Source of the DNA: the human T2T-CHM13v2.0 reference genome, Homo sapiens
Length of the DNA stretch: 64,000 bases
Assembly (NCBI RefSeq): GCF_009914755.1
Contig: NC_060929.1
Reading direction: 5' to 3' (one strand)
Shown: positions 39,747 through 56,600 of the stretch, one piece after another
Numbering within the stretch: position 1 is the stretch's first letter
Layout: every line of letters begins with the position of its first letter
The notes under the pieces: model-generated
The model's input: the letters and a program-made list of their open reading frames with translations, nothing else
Database searches by the model: none
What the model was told of the DNA's origin: nothing
Program-made: the position numbers and the translations under genes

Positions 39747-42700
39747 TCAATTCCCACCTATGAGTGAGAACATGCGGTGTTTGGTTTTTTGTCCTTGCGA
39801 TAGTTTGCTGAGAATGATGGTTTCCAGCTTCATCCATGTCCCTACAAAGGACATGAACTCCTCCTGTTTTATGGCTGCATAGTATTCCACGGTGTATATG
39901 TGCCACATTTTCTTAATCCAGTCTATCATTGTTGGACATTTGGCTTGGTTCCAAGTCTTTGCTATTGTGAATAGTGCCACAATAAACATACATGTGCATG
40001 TGCCTTTATAGCAGCATGATTTATAATCCTTTGGGTATATACCCAGTAATGGGATGGCTGGATCAAATGGTATTTCTAGTTCTAGATCCCTGAGGAATTG
40101 CCACACCAACTTCCACAATGGTTGAACTAGTTTACAGTCCCACCAACAGTGTAAAAGTGTTCCTATTTCTCCACATCCTCTCCAGCACCTGTTGTTTCCT
40201 GACTTTTTAATGATCACCATTCTAACTGGTGTGAGATGGTATGTCATTGTGGTTTTGATTTGCATTTTTCTGATGGCCAGTGATGATGAGCATTTTTTCA
40301 TGTGTTTTTTGGCTGCATAAATGTCTTCTTTTGAAAAGTGTCTGTTCATATCCTTTGCCCACTTTTTGATGGGGTTGTTTGTTTTTTTCTTGTAAATTTG
40401 TTTGACTTCATTGTAGATTCTGGATATTAGCCCTGTGTCAGATGAGTAGGTTGCAAAAATTTTCTCCCATTCTGTAGGTTGCCTGTTCACTCTGATGGTG
40501 GTTTCTTTTGCTGTGCAGAAGCTCTTTAGTTTAATTAGATCCCATTTATCAATTTTGGCTTTTGTTGCCATTGCTTTTGGTGTTTTAGACATGAAGTCCT
40601 TGCCCGTGCCTATACCTGAATGGTATTGCCTAGGTTTTCTTCTAGGGTTTTTATGGTTTTAGGTCTAACCTGTAAGTCTTTAATCCATCTTGAATTAATT
40701 TTTGTATAAGGTGTAAGGAAGGGATTCAGTTTCAGCTTTCTACGTATGGGTAGCCAGTTTTGCCAGCACCATTTATTAAATAGGGAATCCTTTCCCCATT
40801 TCTTCTTTTTGTCAGGTTTGTCAAAGATCAGAGAGTTGTAGATGTGCGGCATTATTTCTGAGGGCTCTGCTCTGTTCCATTGGTCTATATCTCTGTTTTG
40901 GTACCAGTACCATGCTGTTTGGTTACTGTAGCCTTGTAGTATAGTTTGAAGTCAGGTAGCATGATGCCTCCAGCTTTGTTCTTTTGGCTTAGGATTGACT
41001 TGGCGATGCAGGCTCTCTTTTGGTTCCATATGAACTTGAAAGTAGTTTTTTCCAATTCTGTGAAGAAAGGCATTGGTAGATTGATGGGGATGGCATTGAA
41101 TCTATATATTACCTTGGGCAGTATGGCCATTTTCATGATACTGATTTTTCCTACCCATGAGCATGGAATGTTCTTCCATTTGTTTGTATCCTCTTTTATT
41201 TCATTGAGCAATGGTTTGTAGTTCTCCTTGAAGAGGTCCTTCACATCCCTTGTAAGTTGGATTCCTAGGTATTTTATTCTCTTTGAAGCAATTGTGAATG
41301 GGAGTTCACTCATGATTTGGCTCTCTGTCTGTTATTGATGTATAAGAATGCTTGTGATTTTTGCACATTGATTTTGTATCGTGAGACTTTGCTGAAGTTG
41401 CTTATCAGCTTAAGGAGATTTTGGGCTGAGATGATGGGGTTTTCTAGATATACAATCATGTCATCTGCAAACAGGGACAATTTGACTTCCTCTTTTCCTG
41501 ATTGAATACCCTTTATTCCCTTCTCCTGCCTGATTGCCCTTGCCAGAACTTCCAACACTATGTTGAATAGGAGTGTTGAGAGAGGGCATCCCTGTCTTGT
41601 GCCAGTTTTCAAAGGGAATGCTTCCAGTTTTTATCCATTCAGTATGATATTGGCTGTGGGTTTGTCATAGATAGCTCTTATTATTTTGAGATATGTCCCA
41701 TCAACACCTAATTTATTGAGAGTTTTTAGCATGAAGGGTTGTTGAATTTTGTCAAAGGTCTTTTCTGCATCTGTTGAGATAATCATGTGGTTTTTGTCTT
41801 TGGTTCTTTTTGTATGCTGGATTACGTTTATTGATTTGCATATGTTGAACCAGCCTTGCATCCCAGGGAGGAAGCCCACTTGATCATGGTTGATAAGCTT
41901 TTTGATGTGTTGCTGGATTTGGTTTGCCAGTATTTTATTGAGAATTTTTGCATCAATGTTCATCAAGGATATTGGTCTAAAATTCTCTTTTTTGGTTGTG
42001 TCTCTGCCCGGCTTTGGTATCAGGATGATGCTGGCCTCCCTAAAATGAGTTAGGGAGGATTCCCTCTTTTTCTATTGATTGGAATAGTTTCAGAAGGAAT
42101 GGTAACAGTTCCTCCTTGTACCTCTGGTAGAATTTGGCTGTGAATCTATGTGGTCCTGGACTTTTTTTGGTTGGTAGGCTATTAATTGTTGCCTCAATTT
42201 CAGATCCTGTTATTGTTCTATTCAGAGATTCAACTTCTTCCTGGTTTAGTCTTGGGAGAGTGTATGTGTCAAGGAATTTATCCATTTCTTCTAGATTTTC
42301 TAGTTTATTTGCGTAGAGGTGTTTATAGTATTCTCTGATGGTAGTTTGTATTTCTGTGGGATGGGTGGTGATATCCCCTTTATCATTTTTTATTGGGTCT
42401 ATTTGATTCTTCTCTCTTTTCTTCTTTATTAGTCTTGCTAGCGGTCTATCAATTTTGTTGATCTTTTCAAAAACACCAACTCCTGGATTCATTGATTTTT
42501 TGAAGGCTTTTTTGTGTCTTTGTTTCCTTCAGTTCTGCTCTGATCTTAGTTATTTCTTGCCTTCTTCTAGCTTTTGAATGTGTTTGCTCTTGCTTCTCTA
42601 GTTCTTTTAATTGTGATGTTAGGGTGTCAATTTTAGATCTTTCCTGCTTTCTCTTGTGGGCATTTAGTGCTATAAATTTCCCTCTACACACTGCTTTGAA

Positions 42701-53685: not shown

Positions 53686-56600
53686 ATGACAGGATCGAAT
53701 TCACACATAAAAATGTTTACCTTAAATGTAAATGGGCTAAATGTTCCAATTAAAAGACACAGACTGGCAAATTGGATAAAGAGTCAAGACCCGTCAGTGT
53801 GCTGTATTCAGGAGACCCATCTCAAGTGCAGAGACACACATAGGCTCAAAATAAAGGGATGGAGGAAGATCTACCAAGCAAATGGAAAACAAAAAAAAGG
53901 AGGGGTTGCAATCCTAGTCTCTGATAAAACAGACTTTAAACCAACAAAGATCAAAAGAGACAAAGAAGGTCATTGCGTAATGGTAAAGGGATCAATTCAA
54001 CAAAAAGAGCTAACTGTCCTAAATATATGTGCATCTAATACAGGAGTACCCAGATTCATAAAGCAAGTCCTTAGAGACCTACAAAGAGACTTAGATTCCC
54101 ACACAATAATAATGGCAGACTTTAACACCCGACTGTCAGCATTAGACAGATCAATGAGACAGAAAGTTGACAAGGATATCCAGGAATTGAACTCAGCTCT
54201 GCACCAAGCCAACCTAATAGACATCTACAGAACTCTCCACCCCAAATCAACAGAATATACATTCTTCTCAGCACCACATCACACTTACTCCAAAACTGAC
54301 CACATAGTTGGAAGTAAAGCACTCCTCAGCAAATGTAAAAGAACAGAAATTATAACAAACTGTCTCTCAGACCACAGTGCAATCAAACTAGAACTCAGGA
54401 TTAAGAAACTCACTCAAAATCACTCAACTACATGGAAACTGAACAACCTGCTCCTGAATGACTAGTGGGTAAATAATGAAATGAAGGCAGAAATAAAGAT
54501 GTTCTTTGAAACCAGCGAGAACAAAGACACAACAAATCTCCGGGACACATTTAAAGCAGTGTGTAGAGGGAAATTTATAGCACTAAATGCCCACAAGAGA
54601 AAGCAGGAAAGATCTAAAATTGACACCCTAACATCACAATTAAAAGAACTAGAGAAGCAAGAGCAAACACATTCAAAAGCTAGAAGAAGGCAAGAAATAA
54701 CTAAGATCAGAGCTGAACTGAAGGAGATAGAGACACAAAAAAGCCTTCAAAAAATCAATGAATCCAGGAGTTGGTGTTTTTGAAAAGATCAACAAAATTG
54801 ATAGACCGCTAGCAAGACTAATAAAGAAGAAAAGAGAGAAGAATCAAATAGATGCAATAAAAAATGATAAAGGGGATCTCACCACCCATCCCACAGAAAT
54901 ACAGACTACCATCAGAAAATACTATAAACACCTCTATGCAAATAAACTAGAAAATCTAGAAGAAATGGATAAATTACTCGACACATACACTCTCCCAAGA
55001 CTAAACCAGGAAGAAGTTGAATCCCTGAATAGACCAATAACAGGCTCTGAAATTGAGGCAATAATCAATAGCCTACCAACCAAAAAAAGTCCAGGACCAC
55101 ATAGATTCACAGCCGAATTCTACCAGAGGTACAAAGAGGAGCTGGTACCATTCCTTCTGAAACTACTCCAATCAATAGAAAAAGAGGGAATCTTCCCCAA
55201 TTCATTTTATGAGGTCAACATCATCCTGATACTAAAGCCTGGCAGAGACACAACAAAAAAAGAGAATTTTAGACCAATATCCCTGATGAACATCAATGCA
55301 AAAATCCTCAATAAAATACTGGCAAACCAAATCCAGCAGCACCTCAAAAAGCTTATGTACCACGATCAAGTGGGCTTTATCCCTGGGATGCAAGGCTGGT
55401 TCAACATATGCAAATCAATAAACGTAATCCATCATATAAACAGAACCAAAGACAAAAACATGATTATCTCAATAGATGCAGAAAAGGCCTTTGACAAAAT
55501 TCAACAACGCTTCATGCTAAAAACTTAACAAACTAGGTATTGATGGGACGTATCTCAAAATAATAAGAGTTATCTATGACACACCCACAGCCAGTATCAT
55601 ACTGAATGGGCAAAAACTGGAAGCATTCCCTTTGAAAACTGGCACAAGACAGGGATGTCCTCTCTCAACACTCCTATTCAACATAGTGTTGGAAGTTCTG
55701 GCAAGGGCAATCAGGCAGGAGAAGGGAATAAAGGGCATTCAATTAGGAAAAGAGGAAGTCAAATTGTCCCTGTTTGCAGATGACATGATTGTATATCTAG
55801 AAAACCCCATCATCTCAGCCCAAAATCTCCTTAAGCTGATAAGCAACTTCAGCAATGTCTCACGATACAAAATCAATGTGCAAAAATCACAAGCATTCTT
55901 ATACATCAATAACAGACAGAGAGCCAAATCATGAGTGAACTCCCATTCACACTTGGTACAAAGAGAATAAAATACCTAGGAATCCAACTTACAAGGAATG
56001 TGAAGGACCTCTTCAAGGAGAACTACAAACCATTGCTCAATGAAATAAAAGGGGATACAAACAAATGGAAGAACATTCCATGCTCATGGATAGGAGGAAT
56101 CAATATCATGAAAATGGCCGTACTGCCCAAGGTAATGTATAGATTCAATGCCATCCCCATCAATCTACCAATGACTTTCTTCACAGAATTGGAAAAAACT
56201 ACTTTAAAGTTCATATGGAACCGAAAAAGAGCCTGCATTGCCTAGTCAATCCTAAGCCAAAAGAACAAAGGTGGAGGCATCACACTATCTGACTTCAAAC
56301 TATACTACAAGGCTACAGTAACCAAAACAGCATGGTACTGGTACCAAAACAAAGATATAGACCAATGGAATAGAAGAGCCCCCGGAAATAATACCACACA
56401 TCTACACCCATCTGATCTTTGAGAAACCTGACAAAAACAAGAAATGGGGAAAGGATTCCCTGTTTAATAAATGGTGCTGGGAAAACTGGCTAGCCACATG
56501 TAGAAAGCTGAAACTGGATCCCTTCCCTACACCCTATACAAAAATTAATTCAAGATGGATTAAAGACTTAAATGTTAGACCTAAAACCATAAAAACCCTA

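What the first reader, a model, noticed from the sequence alone, without database searches (positions are those of the whole stretch)
41310..55934. Inverted L1-B and L1-C share three inactivating lesions: patchy ectopic gene conversion between different subfamilies
Seen in the sequence, three shared lesions: (a) the same ORF1 stop, AAACTCTATAAGCC (43877-43879 and 53377-53379); (b) the same +1 frameshift, GGAGTTGGTGTTTTTGAAAAG (~42474 and ~54776); (c) the same 4-bp deletion, AACAGACAGAGAGCC (~41325 and ~55918). They also share the substitutions TGTGCATC, AAAAAAGCCTTC, ACCACCCATCCC, GGACCACATAGATTC, CTCTCAACACTCC, GGCAAGGGC, GAAGGGAATA, CTCACGATAC, TACATCAAT and CAATCTACC. L1-A has the consensus-like state at all of these sites. 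Yet L1-B and L1-C differ clearly in their 5' and 3' UTRs and at interspersed ORF2 sites (WVG vs WIG, QH vs HH), and each has its own TSD, so they are independent insertions. Established: L1 cis-preference makes a shared dead source element unlikely. Inference: repeated non-reciprocal exchange between two ~5.5-6 kb inverted repeats only 5.9 kb apart.
Basis: partly seen in the sequence, partly recalled or inferred. Interest (0 to 1): 0.8.

Follow-up and report, generated by a model that had tools for sequence, protein, structure and literature searches.

The report
Old gene conversion between inverted L1s
Two dead, head-to-head LINE-1 copies of different ages, 5.9 kb apart in an intron of CDC42SE2, have swapped short stretches of sequence by ectopic gene conversion, a known process seen here in an unusually clear L1 example.

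Summary
All three lesion motifs and all 10 substitution motifs sit in both L1-B (39521-45667, minus) and L1-C (~51611-57061, plus).

The interpretation, patchy ectopic gene conversion, is supported, though not mainly by the lesions.
- **Lesions:** two of the three are common recurrent variants genome-wide. The ORF1 stop is in 138 copies against 3619 without it. The 4-bp deletion is in 867 copies against 7195.
- **Rare shared states:** against a panel of 37 other genomic L1PA copies, B and C share 25 rare states, 21 of them from the 3' half of ORF1 through ORF2. The median over 780 pairs is 0-1 and the 99th percentile is 4.2.
- **Private to the pair:** three of three multi-variant k-mers tested occur only in B and C in the whole 3.1-Gb genome.
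- **Trees disagree:** B and C lie in different starred clades in the 5'UTR/ORF1 part (one clade rejected, AU p 4e-5). They are sisters (100) in the central 2.85 kb, and apart again in central columns more than 50 bp from a shared rare site.
- **Patchiness:** retained non-CpG subfamily differences interleave with the shared sites, so the exchange was patchy.

Direction, date, and one versus several events remain open. This is a new example of a known process.

The parts
39521..45667 (-). L1-B: full-length L1PA copy of an intermediate-age clade, with an A-rich tail and a target-site duplication
   Evidence: Self-BLAST, alignment, junctions and TSD AAATGTTCA, clade with L022/L028/L032 in the 5' tree
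51611..57061 (+). L1-C: L1PA copy of an older clade, full length at both ends but missing about 650 bp of ORF2 3' sequence after 56713; no clear TSD found
   Evidence: starred clade with L049/L025/L034/L027
45668..51610 (.). 5.9-kb spacer between the two facing 5' ends; no B-C homology here apart from unrelated Alu-type repeats
14647..20559 (-). L1-A: a younger L1PA copy used as local control. It shares 5 rare states with B and 1 with C
43877..43879 (-). ORF1 stop codon (TAA) in B; the same stop is at C 53377-53379. Common genome-wide, so it may be independent or co-converted
42398..42519 (-). 122-bp stretch identical to C 54731-54852. It holds three shared rare events, including the +1 frameshift (B 42474/5) and the adjacent C>T (B 42479)
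41509..41585 (-). 77-bp stretch identical to C 55659-55735, holding three shared rare substitutions (B 41576, 41541, 41518)
41293..41387 (-). 95-bp stretch identical to C 55857-55951, holding two shared rare substitutions (B 41381, 41338) and the 4-bp deletion (B 41326|41327)
53377..56164 (+). The span of C that holds the 20 central shared rare events (C 53377 to 56164, matching B 43879 to 41080). Four more lie in the 5'UTR (B 45623, ~45525, 45019, 44919)

Best explanation
B and C are two independent L1PA insertions of different subfamilies. They sit head to head, 5.9 kb apart. After both had inserted and begun to decay, short stretches were copied between them by non-allelic (ectopic) gene conversion. 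This is homology-directed repair or heteroduplex correction in which the nearby inverted copy serves as template.

Mutations private to the donor copy, including at least the +1 frameshift and probably the 4-bp deletion, were carried into the recipient. Between the converted patches each copy kept its own subfamily states, and both have gone on mutating since.

**Shown:** independent origin, shared variants private to the pair, and a mosaic phylogeny.
**Inferred:** the mechanism, that the exchange came well after insertion, and that patches are tens to a few hundred bases long.
**Not resolved:** direction, and one event versus several.
For: 1. **Independent origin.** Homology ends at the L1 ends and B has its own TSD. 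In the 5'UTR plus the first half of ORF1, A, B and C fall in three different clades separated by starred branches (29 rows). Forcing B+C together costs 150 lnL, AU p 4.2e-5 (28 rows, L026 left out for its long branch).

2. **Excess of shared rare states.** B-C share 25 events over the whole length. Over 780 pairs the median is 1 and the 95th percentile is 4. In the central 3.6 kb they share 21, against a median of 0, a mean of 0.63 and a 99th percentile of 4.2. Only L016-L019, two chr9 copies, score higher.

3. **The combinations are private to the pair in 3.1 Gb.**
- The 21-mer has 2 of 2 matches in B and C.
- The 37-mer with two variants has 2 exact matches (B and C). The 40 one-mismatch matches each carry only one of the two variants, 32 and 8.
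- The 59-mer with two variants has 2 exact matches. The 36 one-mismatch matches again carry only one variant, 34 and 2.

4. **Mosaic.** In B 43900-41050, B+C are sisters with support 100, internal branch 0.011 and tips 0.025 and 0.032 (35 rows). In central columns more than 50 bp from any shared rare site, B again sits nearest its 5' mates (L015, L028, L038). C sits in a starred clade with L049, L034 and L027.

5. **Interleaving.** Non-CpG sites where B keeps the state of its mates and C that of its mates alternate with the shared rare sites at least 8 times. These sites are B 43712, 43181, 42971, 42698, 42524, 41966/55, 41910 and 41154.

6. **Local depletion of differences.** B-C differences are 2.8% within 30 bp of shared rare sites (28 in 990 bp) and 6.5% elsewhere (171 in 2621 bp). 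All three classes (b, c, d) are depleted.

7. **Clustering.** There are 6 adjacent pairs of shared rare sites, a count reached in 5 of 20000 shuffles.

8. **Known background.** Fawcett and Innan 2019 (PMC6598467, passages read) report non-allelic conversion between transposon copies, with rates raised for Alu copies within 10 kb.
Against: - **Identity-run test not significant.** B-C have 6 exact runs of 95 bp or more, but 6% of the 182 panel pairs of similar divergence have as many.
- **No exceptional overall similarity.** Overall B-C identity is only 91.4%. In raw distance C is B's nearest neighbour in just 1 of 11 segments.
- **Weak rejection in S-distal columns.** The B+C clade is not formally rejected there (AU p 0.125).
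- **Small, biased panel.** It has 37 copies, chosen from the 40 scored of 9248 and of 14060 candidates for similarity to B or C.
- **Sparse subfamily markers.** The diagnostic sites rest on 7 and 4 sequences, and some central sites paint inconsistently.
- **No outgroup.** No other genome was available, so the derived state of each shared variant, the donor and the date are all inferred.
- **Common lesions.** Two of the three headline lesions are common variants.
Confidence: 0.85

Rival explanations
1. Shared dead source. B and C were both copied, in trans, from one inactive L1 or a small sublineage that already carried the stop, the frameshift, the deletion and the other variants.
For: The shared variants include inactivating lesions and are spread over 4.5 kb. 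The ORF1 stop and the 4-bp deletion do occur in many other copies.
Against: - No other genomic copy carries any of the three tested variant combinations.
- The 138 stop-bearing copies sampled (8 of them) lie on diverse backgrounds, with 67-94% identity to A, B and C.
- B and C differ by subfamily in the 5' part. They also differ at interleaved non-CpG diagnostic sites in ORF2 and at the 3' end, which a common source cannot give.
- Two trans-copies of one dead element would have to land 6 kb apart by chance.
Confidence: 0.03
2. Parallel mutation. The shared states arose independently in B and C at mutation hot spots.
For: This is plausible for single lesions.
- The 4-bp deletion is in 867 of 8062 copies.
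- The ORF1 stop is in 138 of 3757.
- T-run slippage at the frameshift site is frequent: 95 of the 100 listed rows are T7.
Against: - B-C share 21 rare events against a mean of 0.63 over 780 pairs.
- About half of the shared changes are transversions at non-CpG sites (12 transitions, 11 transversions).
- Each single variant is rare where it was counted: 8, 32, 2 and 34 copies on an otherwise exact background.
- Differences are depleted around the shared sites.
Confidence: 0.02
3. Inverted segmental duplication. One L1 was duplicated in inverted orientation at the DNA level, and the two arms have since diverged.
For: Inverted orientation, a short spacer and shared private variants are what a decayed palindrome would show.
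Against: - There is no homology outside the L1 bodies, and the flanks and tails differ.
- The 5' parts belong to different subfamilies, and one clade is rejected at p 4e-5.
- The 3' ends also carry different subfamily states.
Confidence: 0.02
4. A third local donor. A further L1 copy, now deleted or outside the sample, converted both B and C.
For: A, B and C all share one rare base (B 42566 / A 17573 / C 54684) seen in none of the 36 other panel copies with data there. A and B share four more rare states.
Against: - No extant genomic copy carries the tested combinations.
- A has the majority state at all other B-C shared sites.
- This reading needs an extra, unseen element.
Confidence: 0.04

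Closest known systems
Non-allelic (ectopic, interlocus) gene conversion between dispersed retrotransposon copies, best documented for Alu
   Same: Copies of different subfamilies show mosaic diagnostic patterns and tree incongruence. Fawcett and Innan 2019 (PMC6598467, passages read), citing Aleshin and Zhi 2010, report raised rates for copies within 10 kb. Here the copies are 5.9 kb apart.
   Different: The elements here are 6-kb L1s rather than 300-bp Alus. The signal is carried by private decay mutations, lesions included, rather than by subfamily-diagnostic sites. The event is old and heavily overprinted by later mutation.
Repair of a break in a chromosomal LINE by gene conversion from other endogenous LINEs (Tremblay, Jasin and Chartrand 2000, mouse cells)
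   Same: L1-to-L1 conversion between diverged copies with very short tracts. Sen et al. 2007 (PMC1920257, passage read) quote tracts as small as 13 bp from that work.
   Different: That was an induced break in cultured cells, whereas this is a germline fossil. I could not read the paper itself, because it is not held.
Inverted L1PA pairs that mediate inversions by non-allelic homologous recombination
   Same: Aguado et al. 2014 (PMC3961182, passages read) list a validated polymorphic inversion between 6.2-kb inverted L1PA3 copies 20.8 kb apart (HsInv0341). That is the same architecture as B-spacer-C.
   Different: No inversion of the spacer can be shown or excluded from one genome. B carries its mates' states at both ends and C its own, so there is no net single crossover inside the elements. 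A search for CDC42SE2 with 'inversion' and 'inverted repeats' found 0 papers.
Arm-to-arm gene conversion in palindromes (for example on sex chromosomes)
   Same: Intrachromosomal exchange between nearby inverted repeats. This comparison is recalled and was not tested here.
   Different: Palindrome arms stay above 99.9% identical through continuing conversion. B and C are 91% identical with only scattered old patches, so there is no concerted evolution.

Membership tests
Non-allelic gene conversion between paralogous repeats | The two copies have independent origins at separate loci | tested here: met
   No flank homology. B has its own TSD. The 5' parts lie in different clades, and B+C as one clade is rejected at AU p 4.2e-5. 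No TSD was found for C.
Non-allelic gene conversion between paralogous repeats | Shared derived variants are private to the pair and absent from other family members | tested here: met
   21 shared rare events against a mean of 0.63 over 780 pairs. Three of three multi-variant k-mers occur only in B and C genome-wide.
Non-allelic gene conversion between paralogous repeats | Phylogenetic incongruence or a mosaic along the sequence | tested here: met
   Sisters (100) in the centre. Apart in the 5' part and in central columns far from shared sites (AU 0.125, so not formally rejected there). Diagnostic sites interleave with the shared sites.
Non-allelic gene conversion between paralogous repeats | Tracts of unusually high identity (GENECONV-type test) | tested here: inconclusive
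   The run-length test reaches only p of about 0.06 against pairs of like divergence. However, differences are 2.3-fold rarer within 30 bp of shared sites.
Non-allelic gene conversion between paralogous repeats | Non-reciprocal transfer, with the donor unchanged and the recipient changed, seen against an outgroup or orthologue | not testable with these tools
   Only one human genome was searchable and no other primate genome was held.
Primate L1PA LINE-1 elements | Full-length structure (5'UTR, ORF1, ORF2, 3'UTR, A-tail) and homology to genomic L1PA copies | tested here: met
   Collinear alignment of A, B and C with full-length genomic copies. The first look found 9248 and 14060 genomic candidates. 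Subfamily names were not assigned because no Dfam or RepeatMasker library was at hand.
Trans-mobilised inactive L1 sublineage | Further members elsewhere in the genome carry the same linked variants | tested here: not met
   no third copy carries any tested combination.
Inverted segmental duplication / palindrome | Homology extends into the flanks and both arms have the same origin | tested here: not met

The most novel reading that the evidence does not exclude
All patches stem from a single event. A heteroduplex of 4.5 kb or more would have formed between the two inverted L1s, for example in an intrachromatid snap-back or during a recombination that inverted the 5.9-kb spacer. Patchy mismatch repair would then have resolved it. 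The third local copy, A, also took part in exchanges, so this L1 cluster would behave as a small local sequence-exchange community that spreads, and could equally erase, inactivating lesions.
Probability: 0.2. Interest if true: 0.55.

Novelty: new member of a known kind. Interest (0 to 1): 0.35.

Why it matters
It is a clean, checkable case showing that old, diverged L1 copies only a few kb apart can exchange short stretches.
- **Shared defects are not proof of a shared source.** Inactivating mutations can be shared without common descent. This matters for L1 subfamily assignment, for dating by divergence, and for source-element inference.
- **Recurrent lesions mislead.** Some 'lesions' recur in 4-11% of copies, so they should not be used alone as markers of common descent.
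- **Genome stability.** The same architecture, inverted L1s with a short spacer, is a known substrate for inversions.

It does not change what is known about mechanism.

Tried and rejected
- **Nearest-neighbour ranking.** I searched the genome with 1.4-kb pieces of B and C. Only 40 of 9248 and 40 of 14060 candidates were scored, and neither list contained the partner. The best hits (94-96%) are as close as B is to C, so there is no evidence of exceptional overall similarity, and no ranking was possible.
- **Identity-run test.** Not significant.
- **Raw distance by segment.** C is B's nearest in only 1 of 11 segments.
- **Direction of transfer.** B carries the older clade's state at B 43670, 43248, 42177, 42147, 40844 and 40801. 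C carries the younger clade's state at six other sites. With only 4 and 7 reference rows this is too noisy to call.
- **Dating.** Private-mutation density near shared sites is 0.54% for B and 1.26% for C, against 1.77% and 2.49% elsewhere. This suggests exchange well after both insertions, but it rests on 3 and 7 sites.
- **TSD of C.** None found.
- **Other copies with the frameshift.** Three were fetched: one X-linked 5'-inverted L1 and two old copies 85-87% identical to B. They are unrelated to B and C and were left out of the panel.
- **Transition/transversion ratio.** Shared sites (12:11) do not differ from private sites (56:41 and 91:57).
- **Tool and library limits.** Two pattern searches gave a machine error. 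Two papers were not held.
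Full report
**What is there.** A self-comparison of the window shows three full-length L1PA copies.
- A is at 14647-20559 on the minus strand.
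- B is at 39521-45667 on the minus strand.
- C is at about 51611-57061 on the plus strand.

B and C face each other 5' end to 5' end across a 5.9-kb spacer. Overall identities are A-B 93.7%, B-C 91.4% and A-C 91.3%. Homology between B and C stops at the ends of the L1 bodies. C lacks about 650 bp of the ORF2 3' part, after 56713. B has an A-rich tail and a target-site duplication, AAATGTTCA plus neighbours. For C no exact duplication of 7 bases or more was found.

**The observation.** Each of the three lesion motifs occurs exactly twice in the window, in B and in C. The three-way alignment shows the following.
- A TAA stop in ORF1 at B 43877-43879 and C 53377-53379.
- One extra base in a T-run of ORF2 at B 42474/5 and C 54775/6, with a C>T four bases upstream.
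- A 4-bp gap at B 41326|41327 and C 55917|55918.

A has the majority state at all three.

**How common are the lesions?** The window's own genome (3.1 Gb) could be searched by pattern.
- **ORF1 stop.** The 23-mer with the stop occurs 138 times. The same 23-mer without the stop occurs 3619 times, so the stop is in 3.7% of these copies. Eight stop-bearing copies that I fetched lie on diverse L1 backgrounds.
- **4-bp deletion.** The 25-mer with the deletion occurs 867 times. The undeleted 29-mer occurs 7195 times, so the deletion is in 10.8%.
- **Frameshift site.** This site is also slippage-prone. Of 141 matches within one mismatch of a degenerate 26-mer, 95 of the 100 listed rows are a seven-T run.
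- **The form in B and C.** The particular frameshift seen in B and C is rare. Besides B and C it appears in three listed copies, all unrelated: one X-linked 5'-inverted L1 and two old copies 85-87% identical to B. Together with the adjacent C>T, the 21-mer occurs only in B and C.

So two of the three headline lesions are weak evidence on their own.

**The decisive evidence: rare shared states.** I built a panel of 37 other genomic L1PA copies.
- 17 came from the 39 non-self hits of a search with B 41200-42600.
- 20 came from the 39 non-self hits of a search with C 54650-56050.
- In each search only 40 of 9248 and 40 of 14060 candidates were scored, so the panel is small and biased towards B-like and C-like copies.
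- All were aligned with A, B and C.

B and C share 25 events whose state occurs in at most one other sequence. Over all 780 pairs the median is 1 and the 95th percentile is 4. Two pairs score higher.
- L016-L019 score 51. They are two chr9 copies, evidently a duplication.
- C-L049 score 26, mostly in the 5' part. Only 5 of their shared events fall in the central region.

In the region from the 3' half of ORF1 through ORF2 (B 44150-40540), B-C have 21. There the median is 0, the mean is 0.63 and the 99th percentile is 4.2, and only L016-L019 are higher. A-B have 3 and A-C have 1.

**Not a wider sublineage.**
- A 37-mer spanning two shared variants is exact only in B and C. The 40 one-mismatch matches each carry just one of the two variants, 32 and 8.
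- A 59-mer spanning two others is exact only in B and C. Its 36 one-mismatch matches again carry one variant each, 34 and 2.
- With the 21-mer, three of three tested combinations are private to this pair in the whole genome.

**Different subfamilies and a mosaic.**
- **5' part.** In the 5'UTR plus the first half of ORF1 (B 45660-44150), a likelihood tree is ladder-like. A sits with the youngest copies, B in a middle group (L022, L028, L032, L020), and C in a starred clade with L049, L025, L034 and L027. Holding B and C together costs 150 log-likelihood units, AU p 4.2e-5 (with the long-branched L026 left out).
- **Centre.** In B 43900-41050, B and C are sisters with support 100, internal branch 0.011 and tips 0.025 and 0.032.
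- **Centre, away from shared sites.** Taking only central columns more than 50 bp from any shared rare site, B returns to its 5' mates and C to a starred clade with its own. The forced B+C tree is 28 units worse but is not formally rejected (AU 0.125).
- **Diagnostic sites.** At sites that separate B's mates from C's mates, B keeps its mates' state and C its own at B 43712, 43181, 42971, 42698, 42524, 41966, 41955, 41910 and 41154, and at the 3' end. These non-CpG sites alternate at least eight times with the shared rare sites.

Hence the shared ancestry comes in patches.

**Local structure.**
- Shared rare sites cluster. There are 6 adjacent pairs, a count reached in 5 of 20000 shuffles over the whole element and 42 of 20000 in the centre.
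- They lie in 6 of the 8 longest exact B-C runs of the central region. The lesion-bearing stretches are 122, 77 and 95 bp long.
- B-C differences are 2.8% within 30 bp of a shared site and 6.5% elsewhere, and all classes are depleted.

**Results against the reading.**
- A plain run-length test is not significant. 6% of the 182 panel pairs with similar divergence have as many exact runs of 95 bp or more.
- In raw distance C is B's nearest neighbour in only one of eleven segments.

Both fit an old exchange that later mutation has overprinted, but they also mean that tract lengths cannot be read off directly.

**Mechanism.** The best explanation is non-allelic gene conversion between two nearby inverted L1 copies. 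It carried the donor's private decay mutations into the recipient in short patches.

The frameshift is clearly part of such a patch. The 4-bp deletion probably is too, because it lies in a 95-bp exact run with two private substitutions. The ORF1 stop may be co-converted or independent.

Private-mutation densities near the shared sites are about a third to a half of those elsewhere. This suggests that the exchange happened well after both insertions. That is an inference from few sites.

Direction could not be called. One long heteroduplex with patchy repair cannot be told from several short events.

**Rivals.**
- **A shared dead source.** This is excluded by the private combinations and by the subfamily mosaic.
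- **Parallel mutation.** This cannot give 21 events where 0.63 are expected.
- **An inverted duplication.** This is excluded by the flanks and by the 5' tree.
- **A lost third donor.** This cannot be excluded, but it needs an unseen element.

**Known context.**
- Fawcett and Innan 2019 (PMC6598467, passages read) review non-allelic conversion between transposon copies. They cite Aleshin and Zhi 2010 for raised rates between Alu copies within 10 kb.
- Sen et al. 2007 (PMC1920257, passage read) quote Tremblay et al. 2000 for L1-to-L1 conversion tracts as short as 13 bp in mouse cells. I could not read either original.
- Aguado et al. 2014 (PMC3961182, passages read) list a validated inversion between inverted L1PA3 copies.
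- I found no paper on this locus. The search for CDC42SE2 with 'inversion' and 'inverted repeats' gave 0 papers.

**Verdict.** It is a new, well-resolved L1 example of a known process. Its practical lesson is that shared defects, and especially recurrent ones, are not proof of a shared source.

Noticed in passing
B 41326|41327, C 55917|55918; genome-wide: The frameshifting 4-bp deletion in ORF2 is in 867 genomic copies against 7195 undeleted ones (10.8%). In the panel it is in 8 of 27 rows with the older AATAAC-type context and 0 of 10 rows with AACAAC, spread over several clades. It is either a slippage hot spot in a short ACAG/ACAA repeat or an amplified defective lineage. The panel is biased towards it.
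   Followed up: partly
B 42463-42483 site; genome-wide: The six-T run in ORF2 is a recurrent +1 slippage site. 95 of the 100 listed matches (141 in all) carry seven Ts.
   Followed up: partly
A 17573 / B 42566 / C 54684; A 17404, 16043, 15461, 15369: A, B and C all share one rare base seen in none of the 36 other panel copies with data there. A and B share four more rare states, two of them 92 bp apart in the part that C lacks. This is a weak hint that A, 19 kb away in direct orientation, also exchanged sequence with B.
   Followed up: partly
L016 (G000:C9:42286324-42292876) and L019 (G000:C9:77155356-77161908): Two chr9 L1 copies share 51 rare events and have tips of 0.002-0.003. They are evidently part of a recent segmental duplication.
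   Followed up: no
L011 (G000:C23:131432927-131439474): This X-linked L1 has a 5' inversion whose junction lies right at the same T-run and carries the same extra base. It looks like a twin-priming-type junction.
   Followed up: no
C 56713|56714: C has an internal deletion of about 650 bp, corresponding to B 40538-39883 in the ORF2 3' part.
   Followed up: no
14007-14646: An older, 67-70% similar L1 ORF2 fragment abuts the 3' end of A.
   Followed up: no
44795-45994: The RefSeq 'enhancer' feature in the supplied annotation overlaps the 5'UTR of B and its upstream flank.
   Followed up: no
B ~45525 / C ~51740: B and C lack 13 bp of the 5'UTR that A and most panel copies have. One panel copy (L027) lacks it too, so it may be recurrent or a subfamily polymorphism.
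   Followed up: no
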